Shown here: piece after piece, positions 12,184-42,298 of the stretch | Position numbering within the stretch: position 1 is the stretch's first letter | How the letters are laid out: the number at the start of each line of letters is the position of its first letter | Origin: Phaeosaccion multiseriatum | Taxonomy: Eukaryota > Protista > Ochrophyta, other classes | Direction of reading: 5' to 3' | Assembly: GCA_965112735.1 (NCBI GenBank) | Contig: OZ218950.1 | Coordinates: 3,224,001-3,288,000 of the forward strand | DNA: 64,000 nt | Notes under the pieces: model-generated | The model's input: only the letters and a program-made list of their open reading frames with translations | What the model was told of the DNA's origin: nothing | Database searches by the model: none | Made by a program: the position numbers and the translations under genes

Positions 12184-12488
12184 GCTTGCACGAAATGGAC
12201 CAGCTTCCTCTTTATGCCTTCTCTGATATCCTTCTCCCTCAAACCTCTCCCCTCCCCTTCCTCCGCGGGCACGGCCGAAAGGACCCCACCACTTTATATT
12301 CTTAAAAAGAGCTTGCCCAGTGCTTCGAGGAGTCTGAAAGGAGTATCCCGATAATCGAAAGGGGAAGGGGAGGAAAGAGGAGAAACGCGCAAAGCAATGA
12401 TGACACGATTGCGACCCCTAAAATAAAAAATCTGTGAACTTGATCACCAACACGCCATGACCAATGGTACCCCGGCATAATTTGATAT

Positions 12489-12941
12489 TCGGCCCCATGC
12501 ATGCCTAGCGGTTTTGCTCTAGGCCGCTAGGCCGCTCGGCCTTCGGCTGATCTAGGCCTAGGCCGGCGGCCTCCGGCCGCTCTAGGCCGCTCACTTTTCA
12601 GTCCTAGGCGGCCTATATAGCCCGCCTCTAGGCAGCCTCCCAGTGGCCGTGGGCGCGTGCGTGGTGCCGCCCAGCCAGTGGGTAGCAGCACACCTGTAGG
12701 TCTGCACTCCTCGTAGGGCCAGCGAGGCGGAAGAGACAACACGAACCAAGACTACTCCTCACTTCCAATCCCATGCAATGAAACTGACTACTCTTTGCAC
12801 TCTGGGCACTCCCACCGTCCGCCTAGTTGGCTGGCGTCTGCCCTAGGCGGCGGCATATAAATAGGCCGAGGGCCTACGGCCCTCGCTAGGCCGGGCAATT
12901 TTCCCAAATAGGCCTAGGCCGCTAGGCGTGCATGGGGCCGA
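12489..12941. mobile_element. Non-autonomous TIR element (MITE family A), uninterrupted copy, 453 bp
   Basis: Termini TCGGCCCCATGCATGCCTAGCGG ... CCGCTAGGCGTGCATGGGGCCGA (23 bp, 1 mismatch). Flanked by direct repeat TGATAT (12483-12488 and 12942-12947). Near-identical inverted copy at 36841-37841. Confidence 0.92.
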
Positions 12942-13419
12942 TGATATCCATATTTTTGATTTTTGTACCATGCACAACGCACAAGGGGCAGGGGTCACTT
13001 GCTATCGCTTTCGACTAGCTGCGGTATTCAAACTGTGCCACCCTGGTCCTACAGGGCATCTCAATTATTATTACATTCTTGTCACGCACTCTGGGGGTGG
13101 ACAAAAATGAGTGCGTGTACCACTGTAAGGCTTATTCCACCGACAAGTAAAAACAAATACAAACCACCACACCCTCCTCTTCCTCACCCTGTCCTCGTCA
13201 CAGCTTTGCATGCGAGTATGTGATGGGCGGGGAAGGAGGAACAGGCCTGGTCCAGAGCCCCTAGTACAACAGCCTTCTCTTGGCAAAGCCTTTCTGCGCC
13301 AGCCATCCCATCACATCATTGTGCAGTACAGACGCGGACTCTCCTCCGCGGGGGGCACCAAAGGACCTTCCTCCTCATCCTCCTTGCTGCTCCTGCTGCA
13401 GCAGCAGCTCCTGCTGCTG

Positions 13420-26061: not shown

Positions 26062-28841
26062 ATGGCCGAGCCATGCATCTCCCTGTCTCTGAAGCAGGGA
26101 TCCTCGCCGCTGCTCCTCCGTCTACTCCTGCTTCTCGGCATCGCTGGTTGCAAGGCCTGGGTGGTTCTCCACCCATCGAGGTGGCAGGGGAGCCGAGAGG
26201 GGGCCCCGGGCTGGTCAGAACGGAGAGGAGGGAGGGGAGGATTCTCAGAAGCAGTTGCATCGGTGACCACCTTGCCGACTCTTGCCCGACGAGGGGCAAG
26301 AGGCAGCACACAGAGCAGTGGCAGCCAAGTGAGTGGGGCTGTGAGTCGTGCCGCTGCGTCCGTCGGGTTCGGTGATAGGGACGATCTATCCGAGCTGTAC
26401 GCGCTCTTCAAAAGGGAGCTAGGGCTCAGCGAGGAAACTGTGAATTCGATTCTCGAGGGAAGGCCGGCAAGGGCAAGGACAAGCAGCAAAGACCAAGAAC
26501 AAGTTGCGGGCAGTGGCGTGAGGAGGGGTCGCAGCGATGACAACAAGGACAATAATGACGATGACGCTGATGATGAAGATGGCCAGCAGGGGCAGGGCGC
26601 GGTCGACGTGGCCGCGGTGCTGCGAGAGCTGCAGAGCACCGAGACGGGGCGAGTGCTTGAGGTCATAGCATGGCTACGGAGCGTCGTGGGGCTGTCAAAA
26701 TTCAACGTCGGGGCGCTAATCCTCACCCACCCGTTCGTGCTCGGCGTGAGAATACAAGAAAATGGAGAGGAGAAGCTGCATCGGCTGGAAAAGCAGCTGG
26801 GAACCAGGTCGGTCCAGGGAGAGAGGCACGTCAAGAAGAGAAACACAACTTGCCAAGAGCGGGAGGTAATTTGCTTCCTCTGACGCCCCCCATCCCCTCC
26901 CCTACTTGTCGACGCCGCCCTTTCTCCCCCGCCTCCCTCCCCTCCTGCCCTCTCAGACGTGCAGTGCTGTTGCGCCTGCTCATGCGCTTCCCCGCCCTCT
27001 TTTCCATGGAGCTGGACAACGACTTACTGCCCAAGATCCAGTGGATGTACAAGGAGCTCTCGCAGTGGTGGGCGAGGAACCTCATTATGCGATGGCCCCA
27101 AATCTTGAGTTACGCGGACGTACAACAGACCTTGGAACCCAAGCTGACCTACCTGGAGACCGAGTTCGGTCTCGTTCGGAAGGAGAGCGCGCGCATCGCC
27201 TCCCTGCACCCCCGCGAGCTTGTCTCTCGCAGCGTCGAGGAGCTGCTGCCTGCGCGAGAGTGGCTGCTGACCGAGTTGGTCATACAGCCTGCAGAGCTCA
27301 CCACGCTGCTGCTGGCCCACCCGCCCCTCCTTTTCGAGGACCTGCACGGGTCATTGGTCCCTAAGCTGGCGTGGGTGCGGGACAATCTCGAGTTCGATTC
27401 CTTACAGGAGGTGGGTGTGGACGGATGCGGCAAAGCTGCTTTGCCCGTGTTGCTCACACGTTGACTGTGCACGCTGACTCACCGTCGCTTCCTGTCTTCG
27501 CACGCTCGCTGCCCGGCCAATCCCTCCTCTCTTATAACCACACCTGTCCTTGTCTCTCTTGCCTCCTCCCCCCCCCTCCTCTCAGGTGGGGCGCTTCATC
27601 CTGAAGCAGCGGCGGCCCTCGTTGCTGAGCGATTCAGTGCAAGACATAACCGCGGAGCTCTCCTTTTACCGCGAGTGGATGGGGGCCTCTTCCCACCAGC
27701 TGCGCACCTCTCCACTTGTGCTGGGGGAGAGCCTGGCGGGGAAGCTCCGACCGAGAGCCGCTGCTCTGCTGCGAGTGGTCGCCACTCCCTATTTGTCTCC
27801 GTCGTCGTCCTCGTCGCCGTCCTTGTCGCCCGCTGCAACAGCGAGCTTGAGAGGAGCCCAAGGGGAGGCGTCCACGGAGGCGCCTGACGGACAGAATGAC
27901 GCCGCCCGTGCTGCTGCCGAGGAGACCGCTGAGGCTGACGCTGGAGGTCGTCACCTTCACCTCGTGTTTGATGACCATAAATCGCTAGTGGCAATGACGA
28001 ACGACGAATTTTTCGAAGACATGCTCGAGGAGTATGAGCGCAAGTGGTCCTACGAGGTGCTGAGGAGAGAACTGGACAGGGCTGCGCAGCAAGGCAGCCT
28101 AGGGCCGTCCCTGGCCATGTCCACTCCTTCTCCTCGTCCTCCTTCTCCACCACCACCACCACCGCCTCCGCGATTGAGCTATGTTGAGTACCTCCAGGTG
28201 TACGAGGGTATGACCGAAGAAGAGGCACGCACGGAGTATCGCAAGCATCCTAAACTGTGGCCGTACCTCGCGCGAGTCGACGAGAAAGCAGCGGTACCAG
28301 CACTCGCAGCAGCACCAACAGCAGTGCCTGTAACCAAGAAGAAGGAAGGAGGAAGGAAGAGCAAGAGGAAAGGCGAGGAACAGCTTGCTGGTGGTGACAG
28401 TGGTGGTGATGAGGATGCAGATTCTCGCGCCATTCGTGGGCTATTGCTGTCCGAGCTGGACATGGGTGACAAGGCTTTCGAGCAGTTGAGGAGCAGCTAC
28501 GCCCCGCTCCGCCGCCGCACAGGGACGGGCGGGCACTACGAGAGGACTTCCTGTCTCGACTTGGGCATGCTGCGCGACACAGTGGGAGAGCTGCTCGGCC
28601 TGCTCAGGGGCCGTCCTGGAGAGGGTTGGGGAGGAGGAGGAGGCGGGGACGGCGGAGAGGGCCTGGGCATGAGCAAGGAGGCAGTGCGGCGGCTCTTGGT
28701 AAAGTACCCGGAGCTGCTGGGTATGGAACCGGATATGGTTCGAGACCTTGTCGAATGGCTGGTGGCCGATGTGGGGATCGGGACGAGAGGAGGAGAGCAG
28801 GGCCGTGGGGAGAAGAAGGGAAGCAGTGGTGGGAGCAGCAC

Positions 28842-28882
<41 letters not shown>

Positions 28883-30091
28883 TTGCAAAGATTATTTGCG
28901 CGTATCCGCAGTTGCTGAGCTTCAATGTGCACACCAGCCTCTCCCCCAAGCTTAGTTTCTACACGGAGGTTCTGGGCCTCAGCGGAGCAGACGCGGCAAA
29001 GATGATCGGCCGACATCCGCGTCTTCTCAGCCACAGCATCTCCAAGGGCGTCGTGCCGAGACTGCGGTGGTTGGAACTAGAGTTTGGCTTCAGCCTTGGT
29101 CAGGTGCGCAAGATCGTCGTGAGCTACCCGCAGCTGTTCGGCCTTGACTTGGAGGGCAACCTGGCAGAGAAGGTGAGTGAAGGAGAGAGAGAGAGATCGT
29201 CGTGTAAAAACAAAACAAATGAGTATTATCTTGAAGTAAAGATTGGGTTGTTTCTCCAAACGTGCAAAGCATCGTTTGTCTTCCCCCCTCCCTCCTCCCC
29301 CATCTGGCCTCGCGATTAACCGCTTCTACCTGAAACCCTCTCTCTGATCTTTTGCTGCCAACTACACCCGAACCGAAAAGGTGCGGTGGATGAAAGAGGA
29401 CTTGGGCCTGTCTCAAGAGGAAGCGGGCAAGATGGTGAGGGCCCTCCCGCAAGTGCTGGGTCTCAGCGTGCAGGGCAACCTCGAGCCCAAGCTGCGGCAC
29501 CTCCAACGAGAGCTCGGCTTTGCGTCTAGCCAGGCTGTGGTGCGCGATTTCTTGCTGCGGCGGCCCTCCCTTTGGGGTATGTCGACGGCCAACCTGGACG
29601 AGAAGCTCCGCTTCTTTAGAGAAAAGATGGGGGCATCGAGTGCGCAGCTGCAGACTGCGGCAACGCTCATGAGTGCAAGCGTGGAGATGGTCCTCCGACC
29701 TCGAGCCGCCGCACTGGAGAGGAGTGGGTGCCTGGGGAACTCGTCGCTGTCCTTTGACAAGCACAAGAGCCTTGTGGCAGCGGGGACGGACGTTGCCTTC
29801 CACCAAAGGCTCCTCCGCATGATTGGCGCGAGAGAGGAGGCAGAGGGAGACGGGCAGCAGGGGGAGGAAAGGGCGTATGCCGATGCTGCTACAGAGGGCA
29901 GCCAGGCGGGGAGAGAAGGGCAGCAGCAGCAAGGCACGATTGCCTTTGCGGCCACTGCGTCTTGTCGGGGCCGCCTCGGATACTTGGAGTATCTGATGGA
30001 CTTCGAAGGCAGGAGCAGAGCGGACGCGGAGAGGGCCTACCGCATGCACCCCACGAGGTGGCCCTATATGGAGAGGGACCTTGACCGGTGA
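26062..30091 (+). CDS. Plastid-targeted mTERF-repeat protein with internally duplicated architecture
   Basis: Signal LLLRLLLLLGIAGCKA|W. Many mTERF repeats: RWPQILSY..QTLEPKLTYL; AYPQLLSFNVHTSLSPKLSFY; RHPRLLSHSISKGVVPRLRWL; SYPQLFGLDLEGNLAEK; ALPQVLGLSVQGNLEPKLRHL. Confidence 0.88.
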
Positions 30092-33983: not shown

Positions 33984-36696
33984 ATGGCTCCTCCAACCCG
34001 CTTGTGGCGCCCAGAGGATCTGAACCGGCTGAAGGAACTCGAGCTTACCAACCAGCATGCCTACATGATGGGCCTAAGGAGCAAGGTGCGTCTGCTGCTG
34101 ATACTCTGCATCCCGCAGAAGAGTGGCAGTTGGTGGTGGATAAACAACGAATGACTGACGAACGAAGTCTCCTCCGTAGGTGATGGGCTTTGAGAGGGAG
34201 AGGGAGCTGTACCTGTCTGCGCTTCGGGAGGGACTCCAGCTGGGGCTCGACTTTCACGTGCCAGGAGGAGGTGAAGAAGAGGCGGGGACCAGCATGGGCA
34301 ATGGGTTGAGAGGAGAGGGGCTTCGCCGCGCATTGGATCAAGACGACGAGGAAGATGGCTGGGCTGGCGAGGAAGAGAGCGACGAAGAAGACGAAGAGAA
34401 GGAGGGCACACGCAGAGGGGAGGTGAAGCAAGGCGGTAAGACTGAGGGAGACACAGGGTCGGCAGGGGCTCCGCGGCCACGACTGGGAAGAGCAGCAGCC
34501 AGTGCACATCAAGGGCAGGCGGCCGCGGAGGCTGCTAGTGCAGAAGCAGGGCTGTCGGAGGTGCTCCTGGAAGGCGTCAGACGCAACAAGATGAAACAGG
34601 TGCAGCAGTCCAGGATCGCTGCCCACGAAAAGTGAGTGACGCAAATGAGCGCTTGGCGAAAGGCCATGGTTTCTTCTGGTGAGAGGGGGGGAGGAGAGTT
34701 GTTTTGCCAGCTCAATAGCAGTGGTGTTGTGTGTGATCCAAATTACGTCAATCTCAGAAGCGGTGTGCACTTACACCTCCTCTCCCTCTCATGAACAACA
34801 AAACAACGCAACAACAACACAATAGAGCGGAAGCACTGTGGCGCCTGCACACGGAGAAGGCGCGACTGACCAACTCCCTCCTCGCCGCCCGCCTCAACAA
34901 CGCCGACCACGCCTACGAGCTGCACACGCTGCGCCTCCTCCGCATCCTGGACAGGGAGAGGATGGAGCAGCTGCTGGAGGCCACGGACCCTGTAGGCAGC
35001 GGGGAGGAGGGAGCAGCAGGGGGGGGGGCGCAGCAGAAGCAGCGGGGGCAGTGGCACGAGGGGGTAGAGGGAGGAGGCGGGGTAGGAGGAAGGAAGGGCC
35101 CCAGATTGGAGCGGGTGTCCCCACGGGTGATTCAGGATTTGGAGAAGGCATTGAAGGCGGCGCAGGAGCACGTGCTGCGGACGACGACCGAGACGAGAGC
35201 CCTGGTGTCCAGCAATCTTTCCGCCAAGACCACGGAGGACAAGGTAAGGAGATTGGGTGGGTGGGTTTGGGGGGGGGATAGATTTTGGTGGCTTAGAGAG
35301 AAGGGGGCACTGTCCTATAGATGCTCACGAATTCTTGATTGTTGCTCGCTCTTCCCCCCACTCGCAGGAGGTAATGTCTGAGGTGGCCGGCCTTCAAACG
35401 GAAGTGCACGCACTCCGAGACAAGGTGGGTCCCATTTCTATCTATTCCATGCGGCTGGTTGGCGTACACGAGGAAGGAATTAGTTGGTTAAGGGGGCTCG
35501 AAACGGGAGAACTGACCACATTGCTTTCGAGTATCAAGCAAAGTCTGGGGTCCAAAGTCGGTCCTTGCTTGCAGCCTGCCGCACCCTCACCCATAGAGTT
35601 CCTCCTCTGCTGCTTTGTTCCCACGGCCCGTGCGAACTCGACTCACGCAACGCGAATGACTCACGACGCAAAGGTGCATGATGCGGAGGATATGCTGTGC
35701 CAAACCGTGCTGGACATCCTCACGCTGAGGCACAACGCCTTCGTCGGGCAGCGCCAAATGTGGGAGGAGAAGGGCATCGTGGAGGACAAGCTCGCTGCCC
35801 TTGAACGGGAAGTCTCCAGGTGGGTGGACATACATAATAACACGTATACAATGTATGATGCATGTCATAAGGCATTGCCCTCCGAAAATGGCGAAGCTTA
35901 GGGAGAGAGGGAGAAGACAACCTCTTTCAATCAATAGTGTCTCACTACCTCCTCCTCCTCCTCCTCCTCCTCCTCCTTCATCATACCCCACTCCCGCAGC
36001 ACTAAAGCCAGGCTTGGCGTGGAGAAGGCGCAGATGGCATCCAAGGTATGAACGAGTTGCTCTATACTCTGGTCCTCGAAACGCGCCACAAGCGTGTGCC
36101 TGTAGCTGCATCGGCGGCGCAGAGAGGGTGTGGGGGGTTGCGAAGTGAAGGACGGACGGGGAGCGGAGCCGTCTTACGTGGTTTGTGGGCTCACAAACAC
36201 GAGAGGGGATAAGAGGGAGGAGACAAGTCTTCTGCTCACGCCGCCTCCCCTCCCCCTACTCCTCACTCCCTCCCTGCGGCAGATCGAGCACACAACGAAA
36301 GGCATGCTGACTGACCTGACCCGAAAGCTGGAGATGAAGACGGTGGCCATGTGCCTCTTGAAGGAGCAGCATGACCAAGCAGAGCGCCTCTTTAAAGAGC
36401 GGAGGGCCAAGCTCGGGCTCAAGCTGGAGCACTGGCGGACGAAGCACAGCAAACTGCGGCGCAGGTGCCGGCTGGAGGTGGAGGGATACAAGACTGCATT
36501 GGCTGAGCTGGCGAGGAGAGTGGAGGCGCGAAAGACCGACCCGCGCAAGGTGCACGTACGCTCTGGCCTCGTGGGCGGACCCCACGAGGGGGTGGGGCTA
36601 TGGGACGACACGAGCAGCGTCAGCGTTAGTTCTGCGGAGGAGGCAGAGGAAGGAGGAGGTCGAGGAGGCGTGGAGTTTCAGCTGCGCAAAGGGTGA
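33984..36696 (+). CDS. Coiled-coil protein, CCDC77-like (centriolar)
   Basis: Multi-exon coiled-coil protein. C-terminal KLRRRCRLEVEGYKTALAELARRV resembles the CCDC77 'RRR.LE.EGF..D' motif; also ILTLRHN. The start is uncertain. Confidence 0.55.
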
Positions 36697-36757
36697 AGAT
36701 TCTTCTCTCTTTGTTTTTTCCCGTTGAGATTTCCTCTCCTTACAGTATTATTGTAAT

Positions 36758-36830
36758 GATAGCGCGCCGGCTGGCGCCGGCGATACAACTGTACACTGTA
36801 GCGGATAGCGGACAGTTTATCAGGGGTTGA
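36758..36830. mobile_element. Truncated right end of a family-B TIR element
   Basis: GATAGCGCGCCGGCTGGCGCCGGCGATA...TAGCGGATAGCGGACAGTTTATCAGGGGTTGA matches the right end of 37205-37436 with mismatches; no left TIR is visible. Confidence 0.7.
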
Positions 36831-37204
36831 ATTACTATCATCGGCCCCGTGCACGCCTAGCGGCCTAGGCCTATTTTGGAAAATTGCCCGGCCTAGCGAG
36901 GGCCGTAGGCCCTCGGCCTATTTATAGGCCGCCTAGGCGGCGGCCTAGGCGGGGGCCGGAGGCCCGCGGCCTAGGGCAGACGCCAACTAGGCGCAGGTCC
37001 AGGGCGGGAATATGCTCATATGCCCCTGGGCTGGCCCGGGACCCGCCCAGTCGTCAGTTTTAAGCAAATGTATTGGGATAAGTGAGGAGTAGACTTGGTT
37101 CGTGTTGTCTCTTTCCGCCTCGCTGGCCCTACGAGGAGTGCAGGCCTACAGGTGTGCTGCTACCCACTGGCTGGGCGGCACCACGCACGCGCCCACGGTC
37201 ACTG

Positions 37205-37436
37205 TCGACCCCTGACACACTATCGCCCACATTCTCGATAGCGCGCTATCGGCCGCGGCCGATAGCGGATAGCGTGCCGGCTGGCGCCGGCCGATAGCGG
37301 ATAGCGCGCCGGCTGGCGGATAGCACGCCCCAACAACCCCCCCCCCCCCCCCAAAGCCGGCTGACGCTGCCGATAGCGGATAGCGCGCCGGCTGGCGCCG
37401 GCGATAGCGGATAGCGGATAGTGTGTCAGGGGTCGA
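37205..37436. mobile_element. Nested MITE family B, 232 bp
   Basis: Perfect 20-bp TIR TCGACCCCTGACACACTATC; TSD TCACTG (37199-37204, 37437-37442); internal GATAGCGGATAGCGCGCCGGCTGGCGCCGG repeats; absent from copy 1. Confidence 0.93.
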
Positions 37437-37443
37437 TCACTGG

Positions 37444-37662
37444 TCGGCCCTGGAAGAGGTTACAGTGTGCGCCGGTCATAATCAGTTATCAGGCCGGGCT
37501 GGTGCCAATAATCAGTAATCAGGCCGGCTAGCGCCCGTCATAATCAGTAATCAGACCCGGCTGGCGCCGGCCATAATCAGTAATCAGGCCCGGCTGGCGC
37601 CATAATCAGTAATCAGGCCGGCTGGCGCCGGCAGTAATCAGTAATCTGAAATTTAGGGACGA
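37444..37662. mobile_element. Nested MITE family C, 219 bp
   Basis: Short imperfect TIR TCGGCCCT...AGGGACGA; TSD CACTGG (37438-37443, 37663-37668); about 5 internal TAATCAGTAATCAGGCCGGCTGGCGCC units; absent from copy 1. Confidence 0.85.
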
Positions 37663-38206
37663 CACTGGGAGGCTGCCTAGAGGCGGGCTATAGGCCGCCT
37701 AGGGCTGAAAAGTGAGCGGCCTATTTCGGCCGGAGGCCGCCGGCCTAGGCCTATTTCGGCCGCCGGCCTAGGCCTATTTCGGCCGAAGGCCGAGCGGCCT
37801 AGCGGCCTATAGCCTAGGCCGCTAGGCGTGCACGGGGCCGACTATCATGTATGGGCCGCTCCTCACGCTCCGCTGAAGAAAGATTACTTTGCCGCTCCGC
37901 TCAATCAAGAAGATCCGAGGCTCCCAGATTCAACCGGTGGAACCCCAAAGTGGGCGATTCAGATCGATTCATTGACATGTGGCAATCTATCTTAGACGTT
38001 CATGCCGGTGTGGGGTCCTCTTTTTTACGCGGGACTTACTACCGGCAGGGCACCTCTTAGAATGGCGGTTGGAATGCCCTGCTGTGGGTAAGTAGAGAGG
38101 ATGTACACTTGGGAAGCGGGAGAAAGGGGGCACATACATTGCATTACAGCGTCTGCAAGAGCAGATCGAGAAGGAAGGCAAGATTACGGTAAATGCGTAG
38201 CAGGAC

Positions 38207-41200
38207 ATGGAAGAGGAAGAGGATCACATTGCTGATTGCTATGCGCCTGATGAAGAAGATGAGCGGCAGCAGTTTTCAGGATCACCCGGCGAGGGCAGTG
38301 TATATGGTGCAGCGAGGCACCAACAAGCTCAAGGTGGATTGCGCCAATCACCATCTGTGCCATCCGCACCAGTGGGGGCAGGGGCACTTGCAGCTGGAAC
38401 AGCAGGGGTGGTGGGCGAGGGAGGGCGGCCAGACGCTGAGAGAGGGGACGGGCGGCCATTGCTGCTAGCAGCGGCAGCGGCAGAAAGTGACAGGGACGGA
38501 AGGCGGGCCAAGGGGAGTTGCGTGCGATGCAAACGCTGGCACCGACGGTGTGACGGCAAGGTGCCATGCGAAGGGTGTGTTTCCAGGGGCTTTACGGAGG
38601 GCTGCATCTACGAGAAGCCTCGCAAGGTGAGAAGTATGCGTCATGTCATCTTATTGCGCTCCTTCCCTCTCAGTCTCACCCACTTGCTCAGCCTTGCATT
38701 TCCTTGTTCTTTGTTGCACCAACTCACTCCTGCGCCTCTCTCTCTCCCGGTTGCTCTTCTCCTATGTGCATAGAGAGGACCAAAGCCTGGTACGGTGCGG
38801 CGAAAGAAGGAGGCGAAGGGCGGTGGGGGAGGAAGCAAACCAGCGGCTCGGAGAGAGCCTCCACGAGAGACCCCTTCTGGGAGACGGGCCACCCCTTCTC
38901 GGCAGGAAGTACACGCCTGGACTGGGGTGGAGGGGAGACAGCAGCAGCAGTACCAGCAGTATCAGCAGCACCAGCAGCAGCACGAGCCGCAGCAGCAGCA
39001 GCAGCCGCGGCAAAACCAGCATAGTCACATAGATACGCTATCAGCCAGGCTTATGTCCACTTCTACGTCTACCCTTGCCCCTTCCGGCCCGGGCGTGAGG
39101 TCAAGACCATGGAGCGCACCGCCAGCAAGGGAACATCATGGGCAGCCCAGAGAGGAGGAGAAGGTGTCCAGCCATTATTTCTCTTCGCCACAGCCTCGAC
39201 CGCCTACGGGTCCGAGCATGTACGTTGAGTCGACAGGTCAACAACGACGGATCAGGGAGCCCCTCTCATCGCCAGACTACTTGAAGCAGCCGCCACAGCC
39301 GCGAAAACGCCAACGACAGGAGCTACCGTACACCCAGGAGCAGATAGACTACGATCATCACTATCCCCAGCCTCGAGGGACACCAGGGGCGGCGCCCTCA
39401 TACGATCAGCACCACCACCACCAGCACATACATCGTCATCATCAGCAGCAGCAACAGCAGCGGCAGCAGCAGCAGCAGCAGCAGTACCCACCGTATCCAT
39501 CCCACCTTAGAGGACCACCACCACAGCATCTGCCACCCCAGCACTGGTATCAGCAGCCTATTGCTCACTCGCACGCGCCTCTCGTATCACCTCCGTCATC
39601 TCTCGAACCAGCCCCGTACCTCCCCCGCCCACCGTACCGACAACCGCAAGAGCAAGAGCAACAGCAACAGCAGCAGAGCCACTACCTTCAGGCGCAAGCT
39701 CCACTTCACCCCGCCCACTTGGTCACCACCAGCAACGAGCGGGAGCGGCGCTCGCATGCCGCCTATCGAGAGCAACCCGCACAGGCGCACTCGGGCTACA
39801 CTCCCTTCTATCAAGTCTGGCGTCAGGGCGGGGGAGACGACGCGTATGGAGAGGTGAGTATGGAGCGGAGAGCAGTGGCCCAGTACGGAGCAGCAGCAGC
39901 AGAGGAAGAAGTCGAGGGGGGTCCACCGCGTACCACCACTGTGCCTGTGGGCGACAGCAGACAGGGCAGCAGTAGTAGCAGCCTTCCTGGCGTCAGAAGT
40001 GGCCAAACCAGCGCCGGTAGCAGCGGTAGTCGACTCAGAGAGCGTGAGGTGGTGGGGCCAGCAGAGGCGATGTCTGCCTCTGCCCACGCCCACCGCCATA
40101 CGCCTCCTCGGCAATCATGGGAGGAGGGGTCGGCTCGTTTTCTCGCCGTCCCGACACCAGCAGTGCCGTTGGGTCGACAGACCTCTCCTCCGACAAGAGG
40201 CCCTCCCTCGTCGCCTGGCCCTTCTGCTGGTGGTGGCGGTGGTGTGAGTGGGGGCAACTGCCCAGAGGTTCGTTTCTTGGCCCACTTTGCCGAGGAGATG
40301 GGGCCTGCAGGCACCTTCCTGCCTCTCTTCTCGTCCAACGGTGCCGTAAGTTTCGGAGACAGTGACAATGGCGGCCTCACCATGCAGGGCTTGGTATCGT
40401 CCCTCAGGGCCGTGAGCCCTCAGCGCTTGGAGCGCGTCTTTGCTGCTGGCTCGACCCGTGCATCAGCGGAGGGTAGGGGCGGGGGGAGGCTGCAAGTGGT
40501 GGAGCGGGCCGCTCTCGTCCCTGCGTTTCCCGCGGCGGAGGAGAACTGCGTGCTGTGGGGATGTGTGGCTCTCGGCGCCGTGAGATGCGGTCATCCTGCC
40601 TGGACCCTGTATCTTTCGCATGCGCTAATGTGGTCGGAGATGAGCGTCTCTTGGGGCCCGGGCGAGGCAGCTGTGGAAGGAGCAGCGCCACCAGTAGCAG
40701 CAGCAGCAGCAGCAGGACGGTCAGCCGGACGATACAGCAGTGGTCGTAGTAGGAGGAGCGGCAGCGGCAGTGGCGGCAGTAGCAGTGGCAGTGGCAGTGC
40801 GACCAGGCTGTTGAGTCATGTGCTGTTGGCCGAGGGGCTGTACGTCGCTTCTCTCCACAGCCACACCAGAGCCCACCTTGTTGAGTGCGAGAGGCTCTAC
40901 GACGAGATGGAGAGCCAACGGCATCAGCAACAGGCGGCAGGAGCAGGAGGGGAACAGGCCCCGCCCACCAGCCGCGTGTACCAGCTATCAGAGGTGCCAC
41001 CAGGAGTTCGGGCGCTCATGACCTTCCTGGCCGTACTTACCGCCTCTGTCATCACCGCACCCGATGCTGATGCCGCGACAGACAGCGGCAGCAGCAGCGC
41101 CGCCCCGCCCCTCCTGGCGCCCATCTCCGAGCCCGTCAAAAGCGACACCCCTCCACCCCTCCTGCCTCCCGTAACGGAGGTCGGGCAGCGCAGCAGCAGG

Positions 41201-42298
41201 AGGCACGGGCAGCAGAGTAGCGGAAAGACTCTCGTGGTCGTGCATCATCTTCCTCCTCCTCCGGGGCAGGACGGGAACGCAGAGGCAGCAGCAGTAGCCG
41301 CAGCAGCAGCAGAGAGCACCGCAACTTGTTGCTCGCCAGAAGGTTTACGCCAGCGCGTCGCCACTGACCTTGGGGCTTTCCCTGTGCCTCGAGCACTCGT
41401 GGAGCTCTATCTCTCTGCCATGATCGATCGGCACAACGACCACCTCAAAAGGGAGATTGCGGAGCGAGCGCTGGAAGCATCAGGTGGAGAGGAAGGTGGT
41501 GGTGGTGGTGGAGGAGGAGGAGGAGGAGGAGGAGGAGGAGGAGGAGGAGGAGGAGGAGGAGGAGGAGGAGGAGGAGGAGGAGAGGAAGGGGGTGGGAGCA
41601 GCAGGTCCGGAGAGGGAGCAGTGGCCATAGCGGCGGAGGGCACGTGGGCTGGCATTGCACGCATGGAAGCGACTCTGCAGAGTATGAAGCCTGTTCTCCC
41701 AGGACGGCCCCGGCCCATTTTGGGTGCTCCCTCATCAGCACCCTCCGGGATCAGTAGTACCGCCACCGCGACAACAACAGCAGCAGCGGTTGGTGGTACA
41801 GGGAGCGAGGCGGTGGGCCCGGGGCAGGGGAGCAGCACCCTTATGGAGGCTATGACTCTTCATCTCAACGGTGTAGTGCAACTGTACCAGTCGAGAGACG
41901 TGCAGAGATTTCTGCAAGAGGTGCGAGACCTCGTCTCTCTCTTGGACGACCATGGGACACCGGGCTGCCTGCTACTCTTCGCTCCTCATGCGGTACATCA
42001 GCACCTCTTTCTGCTACGCCAGTTGGGAGCCAGGCGTGAGTATGACCAGTTGAGAAGCCTCCTCTTGCCGTGCCACCTTCCCGTGGTGCCCGACTTCGAC
42101 TCCTACTCGACGAGAAGTGCTCTTCCTGCTGGAGATGCCTGCCTCGAAGGGCTGGAGGAGCACTTCCCTGGCGTTGGCGCAGGAGGCCAAGATCAAGGGG
42201 CTCATGCGGGGGGGCGTTGCCCCCCTCGGCCTTCAAGAAGCGAAGTCAGCCCATCTCCTGGGCTGAGTAGTGACAGTGACCCCGACGACGGGCAGTAG
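38207..42298 (+). CDS. Zn(II)2Cys6 binuclear-cluster transcription factor with long low-complexity region
   Basis: SCVRCKRWHRRCDGKVPCEGCVSRGFTEGCIY fits C-x2-C-x6-C-x5-C-x2-C-x7-C. Intron ~38627-38773, then a long exon with polyQ/polyG and a helical C-terminal region. The true start may be upstream. Confidence 0.85.
41495..41585 (+). repeat. (GGT)(GGA)n coding polyglycine tract
   Basis: Encodes about 29 consecutive Gly in the Zn2Cys6 TF ORF. Confidence 0.9.

What the first reader, a model, noticed from the sequence alone, without database searches (positions are those of the whole stretch)
36841..37841. Three related TIR families with TCG.CCC termini and 6-bp TSDs, nested inside one another: possible unclassified DNA-transposon lineage
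Seen: families A (TCGGCCCC...GGGGCCGA), B (TCGACCCC...GGGGTCGA) and C (TCGGCCCT...AGGGACGA) each have exact 6-bp duplications. Four independent TSDs are visible: TGATAT, CTATCA, TCACTG and CACTGG. Removing B and C from this copy regenerates the empty site CCACGGYCACTGGGAGG seen in the copy at 12489-12941. Known: most TIR superfamilies make 2-5 or 8-10 bp TSDs, and the 6-bp makers I know (Polintons, IS3EU, Dada) have different termini or no TIRs. Inference: these are non-autonomous members of one transposase system that I cannot assign to a known superfamily. Perfect TIRs and TSDs in A copy 2 and B suggest recent activity.
Basis: partly seen in the sequence, partly recalled or inferred. Interest (0 to 1): 0.85.

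Follow-up and report, generated by a model that had tools for sequence, protein, structure and literature searches.

The report
Nested algal mini-transposons with six-base footprints
Three short non-coding DNA elements, two of them sitting inside the third, each flanked by a six-base duplication and sharing unusual TCG ends, are real repeats in what is likely a heterokont alga; they likely move by cut-and-paste using an enzyme that was not found, most likely a hAT-like one, though an undescribed lineage is not excluded.

Summary
Four of four complete elements (A1 12489-12941, A2 36841-37841, B 37205-37436, C 37444-37662) have TCG...CGA ends and an exact 6-bp duplication. Removing B and C restores the A1-type site, and contigs with that empty site occur in 3 of 4 runs laid. 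Summed contig depth is hundreds of times the flanks, so all three are multi-copy families. They are non-coding MITE-like TIR elements in a likely ochrophyte genome. No transposase lies in the window, no genome was held and no autonomous partner was found, so the superfamily stays open. Corrections: B and C lie side by side, one base apart, not inside one another; C has only an 8-bp imperfect TIR; the families differ at 3-5 of the first 11 bases and in subterminal motifs, so 'one transposase' is not shown; hAT6, GingerRoot and Ginger2 also make 6-bp TSDs. Short TIRs, subterminal motif arrays, hAT's shifting TSD length and a brown-algal hAT with TTGGC ends favour a hAT-like lineage (about 0.4). 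A new superfamily remains possible (about 0.17). Interest moderate.

The parts
36841..37841 (.). Family A copy 2: non-coding TIR element, 30-bp perfect TIR, 14 CCTAG/CTAGG subterminal motifs; hosts B and C
   Evidence: contig depth and empty-site joint
36835..36840 (+). Left TSD of A2 (CTATCA); right copy at 37842-37847
37205..37436 (.). Family B: 232-bp element, 20-bp perfect TIR, 11 GATAGC motifs (10 in one orientation); TSD TCACTG at 37199-37204 and 37437-37442
   Evidence: 17 contigs with dissimilar loose ends behind 37436 in run X4
37444..37662 (.). Family C: 219-bp element, 8-bp imperfect TIR, 10 TAATCAG motifs in one orientation; TSD CACTGG at 37438-37443 and 37663-37668; shares a 14-16-bp GC-rich motif with B
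   Evidence: a second A-to-C junction (36988 to 37444) in run X5
36758..36830 (.).
12489..12941 (.). Family A copy 1, opposite orientation to A2, no inserts; TSD TGATAT at 12483-12488 and 12942-12947
36283..36696 (+). Last coding exon of the upstream host gene (coiled-coil protein, no Pfam hit); a spliced contig runs from it through the B-like remnant into the A2 left end, placing the nest in or at its likely 3' UTR
   Evidence: X1 record 1; GT-AG introns, 47 intervening letters reproduced

Best explanation
These are three families of short non-coding elements with terminal inverted repeats and 6-bp target duplications, likely moved by cut-and-paste in trans by related DDE transposases encoded elsewhere in the genome, most likely a hAT-like lineage whose target stagger would have shifted from 8 to 6 bp. 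Shown: ends, TSDs, nesting, lack of coding capacity, multi-copy status. Inferred from established DDE chemistry: the enzyme cuts at the TCG...CGA tips, joins them to a target with a 6-nt stagger, and gap repair makes the TSD. Inferred: the family-specific subterminal arrays (CCTAG in A, GATAGC in B, TAATCAG in C) are binding sites for the transposase's DNA-binding domain, so A probably uses a different partner from B and C. B and C inserted separately, one base apart, into this A copy; their order cannot be read from the sequence. I put about 0.95 on the MITE/cut-and-paste reading and about 0.4 on the hAT-like identity.
For: Structure and TSDs. Longest ATG ORFs 9-48 aa; 0 Rfam matches. Summed contig depth over the elements is about 280-3300 times the flanks in runs X4-X7 (a rough proxy, not a copy number). 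Termini are boundaries in other copies: 10 contigs with dissimilar loose ends behind 12941 (X6), 17 behind 37436 (X4), and X3 contigs stop within 1-2 letters of 12489 and 12941. For hAT: TIRs of 10-25 bp are typical (PMC3942097); short oriented subterminal repeats bound by BED domains are described for Hermes (PMC10368747); hAT TSD length has shifted to 5, 6 and 7 bp (PMC12730594) and 8-9 bp (PMC6004678); the brown-algal hAT-1_Ec32 has non-canonical TTGGC ends and a 23-bp TIR, one base from family A's TCGGC (PMC12477816 supplement).
Against: No transposase was found: 0 of 108 window ORFs scanned (of 188 listed) hit a transposase family, no further ends exist in the window, no genome was held. 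The usual 8-bp hAT TSD is not met, hAT-1_Ec32 itself makes 8 bp, and described hAT6 elements fall in an animal Blackjack-like lineage. A 4-of-5 match in terminal bases is weak. Subterminal arrays also occur in MULE, CACTA and KDZ elements (KDZ; others recalled). The 6-bp length rests on 4 insertions at 3 sites.
Confidence: 0.42

Rival explanations
1. The partner is an integrase-type transposase (IS3EU/GingerRoot/Ginger2 group) whose terminal dinucleotide drifted from TA/TG to TC.
For: 6-bp TSDs are the norm in IS3EU, GingerRoot and Ginger2; all share the terminal 5'-T...A-3' seen here; GingerRoot varies at the second base (TA in 72, TG in 5 of 77).
Against: IS3EU ends are TAYGG with TIRs over 30 bp, GingerRoot TIRs are 100-150 bp; here TIRs are 8-30 bp and start TCG. 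No such family is in the curated Ectocarpus table.
Confidence: 0.2
2. The partner belongs to an undescribed superfamily of cut-and-paste transposases with TCG...CGA ends and a 6-bp stagger.
For: The combination was not found in 10 paper searches nor among the class II rows of the Ectocarpus table, which lists no 6-bp TSD. Three divergent families share the same 7-base end pattern. Ochrophyte TEs are poorly curated and that table flags another likely new clade (P-1_Ec32).
Against: Absence from a Creative Commons full-text library is weak: Repbase Reports and Dfam were not searchable. TSD length and end motifs shift within known superfamilies. Orphan non-autonomous families with odd TSDs, 6 bp included, have been noted before (PMC2817418).
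Confidence: 0.17
3. The partner is a KDZ (Kyakuja-Dileera-Zisupton) transposase.
For: KDZ is abundant in Ectocarpus, with complex tandem-repeat ends and poor TIRs, like family C; KDZ TSDs vary: 7 bp in Kyakuja, 4-8 bp for Cryptococcus KDZ2/3.
Against: All Ectocarpus KDZ rows give 8 bp and G-rich or CAGTA starts; Dileera and Zisupton give 8 bp; A and B have clean short TIRs.
Confidence: 0.12
4. Non-autonomous derivatives of Cryptons, Polintons, Dada or MULEs.
For: Cryptons have 5-6-bp terminal direct repeats and occur in stramenopiles; Polintons make 6-bp TSDs.
Against: Cryptons lack TIRs and CryptonS mostly share TATGG ends, whereas here four different hexamers flank TIR elements; Polinton ends are AG; MULE TSDs are 8-11 bp with long TIRs; Dada lacks TIRs and targets small-RNA genes (listing; TIR absence recalled).
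Confidence: 0.07

Closest known systems
hAT superfamily MITEs, in particular hAT6 (6-bp TSD) and Ectocarpus hAT-1_Ec32/hAT-N1_Ec32
   Same: Short TIRs, arrays of short oriented subterminal motifs, small non-coding multi-copy elements; 6-bp TSD as in hAT6; first five bases TCGGC versus TTGGC in hAT-1_Ec32
   Different: hAT-1_Ec32 makes 8-bp TSDs; hAT6 is placed among animal Blackjack-like hATs; hAT6 termini were not seen in any call; no transposase here to compare
IS3EU and GingerRoot
   Same: TIR elements with 6-bp TSDs and terminal T...A
   Different: Ends TAYGG / TA or TG, TIRs over 30 or 100-150 bp, versus TCG and 8-30 bp here
KDZ elements of Ectocarpus and fungi
   Same: Repeat-rich ends, weak TIR (family C), nested insertions, related host group
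   Different: Mostly 8-bp (Kyakuja 7-bp) TSDs, G-rich ends, kilobase sizes

Membership tests
Non-autonomous TIR DNA transposon (MITE) | Short, TIR-bounded, TSD-flanked | tested here: met
   219-538 bp without inserts; 4 of 4 with 6-bp TSD; C's TIR is only 7 of 8
Non-autonomous TIR DNA transposon (MITE) | No coding capacity | tested here: met
   Longest ATG ORF 9-48 aa
Non-autonomous TIR DNA transposon (MITE) | Many dispersed copies and empty sites | tested here: met
   Depth hundreds of times flank, dissimilar flanks at the termini, empty A site in 3 of 4 runs; exact copy number not obtained
hAT | hAT-type DDE transposase in an autonomous partner | not testable with these tools
   No genome held; no partner in window or searched collections
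hAT | 8-bp TSD (canonical) | tested here: not met
   6 bp in 4 of 4; 5-, 6- and 7-bp hAT groups exist
hAT | Short TIRs with subterminal repeats | tested here: met
   not specific to hAT
hAT6 | Termini matching described hAT6 families | not testable with these tools
   hAT6 ends are in Repbase Reports, not readable here
IS3EU | 6-bp TSD | tested here: met
IS3EU | TAYGG..CCRTA ends, TIR over 30 bp | tested here: not met
   TCG.CCC ends, TIR 8-30 bp versus Pucciniales IS3EU
GingerRoot / Ginger2 | TA..TA or TG..CA ends; 100-150-bp TIR (GingerRoot) | tested here: not met
KDZ | 7-8-bp TSD | tested here: not met
   6 bp here; 8 bp, 7 bp, but 4-8 bp reported for KDZ2/3
KDZ | KDZ transposase domain | not testable with these tools
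   No partner found
Crypton | No TIRs; short direct repeats as recombination cores | tested here: not met
   A and B have 20-30-bp TIRs
Polinton/Maverick | AG termini | tested here: not met
   TCG ends
One superfamily for A, B and C by Repbase's working rule | Same TSD length and at most 1 mismatch in the first 11 bases | tested here: not met
   TSD length shared, but 3-5 mismatches between families (rule in PMC4455052)

The most novel reading that the evidence does not exclude
The ochrophyte host carries a radiation of an undescribed cut-and-paste transposase superfamily defined by TCG.CCC ends and 6-bp TSDs, with several sub-lineages reading different subterminal motifs and a tendency to insert next to the ends of related elements.
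Probability: 0.17. Interest if true: 0.8.

Novelty: new variant of a known kind. Interest (0 to 1): 0.45.

Why it matters
Termini and TSD length are the main handles for classifying non-coding DNA transposons, and this pair fits no family I could read about. The ends give a ready probe to pull the autonomous partner out of the assembly. If it is a hAT, it is a further independent shift of target stagger in an under-curated eukaryotic group, useful for asking what sets TSD length. If it is unclassifiable, it is a new eukaryotic transposase lineage and a possible tagging tool for these algae. Without the enzyme it is a clean but ordinary MITE nest.

Tried and rejected
Whole-genome search: none held. 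Terminal pattern of B and the B-like remnant in metagenome contigs: 3 matches, all without further similarity, chance. A end in prokaryotic genomes: 1 match, no second end, chance. Four patterns in viral contigs: 0 matches each. Pfam on 108 of 188 ORFs of 120 aa or more: no transposase; the 80 left out were mostly short or overlapping frames. Rfam: 0. Earlier findings of the scan: nothing by place or sequence; two unrelated notes by words. A second host-lineage search found nothing. Rejected: an 8-bp TSD (fits A2 only); an 'inside-out' reading in which the B ends are ends of Buster-like hATs pointing outward (the would-be 8-bp flanks are inverted, not direct, and depth lies on the B body; Buster end motif recalled); a Harbinger reading of the GACCC..GGGTC core (no TNA duplication; compare). 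Insertion polymorphism was not testable: X4-X7 are one sample and X1 looks like spliced RNA with patchy cover. The A1 fold z-score of -7.2 only reflects its TIRs and palindromes. The FASTA supplements of PMC12477816 could not be read; uncurated 'DNA/Unknown' models there might hold a 6-bp family.

Full report
Setting. The window is eukaryotic, 57% GC and microsatellite-rich, with intron-split genes carrying Dpy-30, ankyrin, p31comet, CCCH, mTERF, LRR, Zn2Cys6 and DUF4470/4471 domains (108 of the 188 ORFs were scanned). The DUF4471 piece has Tribonema minus as best hit at 40% identity among 19 hits, so the host is likely an ochrophyte; a finer placement was not obtained (one search found nothing). 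No genome was held.

Observation. All four elements are at the stated places: A1 12489-12941, A2 36841-37841, B 37205-37436, C 37444-37662, each with TCG...CGA ends and an exact 6-bp flanking duplication (TGATAT, CTATCA, TCACTG, CACTGG). TIRs are 22 of 23, 30 perfect, 20 perfect and only 7 of 8. Six is the only TSD length common to all; A2 alone also reads as 8. Two random window hexamers agree with probability 5.3e-4, and 30 simulated windows gave 4 perfect 10-bp TIR plus 6-bp TSD hits in all, against 13 in the window, of which 3 are A1, A2 and B, 2 are re-readings inside A2 and 8 come from one CAG microsatellite. A2 without B and C aligns end to end with A1 (403 of 451 ungapped columns). B and C sit side by side, 7 bp apart, with overlapping TSDs; either could have come first. 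A one-ended B-like remnant (36758-36830) ends 10 bp before A2.

Evidence from other copies. Seven public runs hold the stretch: five of one organism label (two samples) and two plant metagenomes with a small share. Laying contigs shows flat depth on the flanks and about 280-3300 times that over A, B and C in X4-X7; the tool warns that this is a sum and no copy number, so I take it only as 'many copies'. Contigs that join 37199 to 37663, i.e. A without B and C, occur in X1, X4 and X5 but not X2, which confirms the nest independently. Dissimilar loose ends start at the termini (17 contigs behind 37436 in X4, 10 behind 12941 in X6, 4 before 36841 in X1), and X5 has a second A-to-C junction at another place in A. 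Both TSD copies of these other insertions could not be seen, so the 6-bp rule rests on the four window copies. One X1 contig is spliced at two GT-AG introns and runs from the upstream gene's last exon into the A2 left end, so the nest lies in or at a likely 3' UTR. In X3, A-family contigs are about 97% identical to A1 and stop within 1-2 letters of both termini at depth 83-93, while a single-copy host piece differs at 15 of 144 letters at depth 2.8; this may be the same organism at trace abundance or a relative with a shared young family.

Anatomy and mechanism. None of the elements codes (longest ATG ORF 9-48 aa; no Rfam match). Each has its own subterminal array: 13-14 CCTAG motifs in A, 11 GATAGC in B, 10 TAATCAG in C; B and C share a 14-16-bp GC-rich motif, A shares no 10-mer with either. 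The first 11 bases differ at 3-5 positions between families, outside Repbase's working rule for grouping (PMC4455052, passages). A fixed-length duplication of unrelated targets outside inverted ends is the established signature of a DDE transposase that integrates with a staggered cut. I infer cut-and-paste in trans by a clade of related enzymes sharing a TCG.CCC tip and a 6-nt stagger but reading different internal motifs, as the Hermes BED domain reads oriented subterminal repeats (PMC10368747, passages). The two A TSDs agree at 5 of 6 bases in element orientation (chance 0.003-0.006), but flanks of other copies agree poorly (0.41-0.46), so strict targeting is not supported. Two insertions within 10 bp of an existing end hint at end-proximal integration; two cases are not proof.

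Search for the partner. No transposase family in the scanned ORFs, no other ends in the window, only chance or no matches in metagenome, genome and viral collections (21, 45, 71, 72), and no earlier finding. The superfamily therefore cannot be tested.

Comparison with known families. PMC12730594 (passages and section 3.1.1): hAT5, hAT6 and hAT7 make 5-, 6- and 7-bp TSDs; IS3EU makes 6 bp with TAYGG ends and TIRs over 30 bp; Dileera and Zisupton 8 bp; Kyakuja 7 bp. PMC6839031 (passages): GingerRoot 6 bp, TA or TG ends, 100-150-bp TIRs; Ginger2 6 bp, TG..CA; Polinton 6 bp, AG. PMC3212892 (passages): Cryptons lack TIRs. PMC6446971 (passages): MULE 8-11 bp. bioRxiv 10.1101/2024.08.15.608186 and 10.1101/2025.05.19.654958 (passages): KDZ1 8 bp, KDZ2/3 4-8 bp. 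PMC12477816 (passages, part of section 5, whole annotation table): no curated Ectocarpus DNA transposon has a 6-bp TSD or TCG start, but hAT-1_Ec32 has TTGGC ends, a 23-bp TIR and an 8-bp TSD; its FASTA supplements were unreadable. PMC3942097 and PMC6004678 (passages): hAT TIRs 10-25 bp, TSDs 8-9 bp. PMC2817418 (passages): orphan families with odd TSDs, including 6 bp, were already noted in C. elegans. PMC3627910, PMC12973397 and PMC5718144 (passages) added nothing. Ten searches showed no TCG-ended 6-bp family, but Repbase Reports and Dfam are outside the library and hAT6 ends were never seen.

Verdict. It works like a MITE system of a cut-and-paste DDE transposon (about 0.95). It is not filed as a member of any superfamily: IS3EU, GingerRoot, Crypton, Polinton and canonical hAT or KDZ each fail a tested feature. 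Best guess for the partner: hAT-like 0.42, integrase-type 0.2, new superfamily 0.17, KDZ 0.12, other 0.07. Novelty: new variant of a known kind. Interest 0.45.

Noticed in passing
window 12411-12998: A1 sits inside an AT-rich stretch bounded by a 9-bp inverted pair with one mismatch that resembles the B end (YGACCCCT core); no 6-bp TSD, single-copy depth. Possibly a decayed older element of the same kind, or chance.
   Followed up: partly
window 36758-36841: One-ended B-like remnant ending 10 bp before A2; with B and C 7 bp apart, two cases of insertion right beside an existing end.
   Followed up: partly
window 12483-12488 and 36835-36840: The two family A TSDs match at 5 of 6 bases in element orientation (chance 0.003-0.006); other copies' flanks do not show a strong consensus.
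   Followed up: partly
window 35671-36867: A spliced contig of run X1 reads from the upstream coiled-coil gene through its stop into the B-like remnant and the A2 left end.
   Followed up: yes
window 36975-37686: Run X1 holds a high-depth internally deleted A variant joining 36975 to 37686, not listed for X4 or X5.
   Followed up: no
window 12489-12941 (run X3): A plant metagenome holds A-family contigs about 97% identical to A1 beside a host piece only about 90% identical: trace amounts of the same organism, or a relative sharing a young family.
   Followed up: partly
window 38201-42298: Downstream gene with a fungal-type Zn2Cys6 cluster followed by a 1174-aa low-complexity open frame without Pfam hit.
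   Followed up: no
window 26661-30091: Three mTERF-matching frames in a row, one gene with introns or a small cluster.
   Followed up: no
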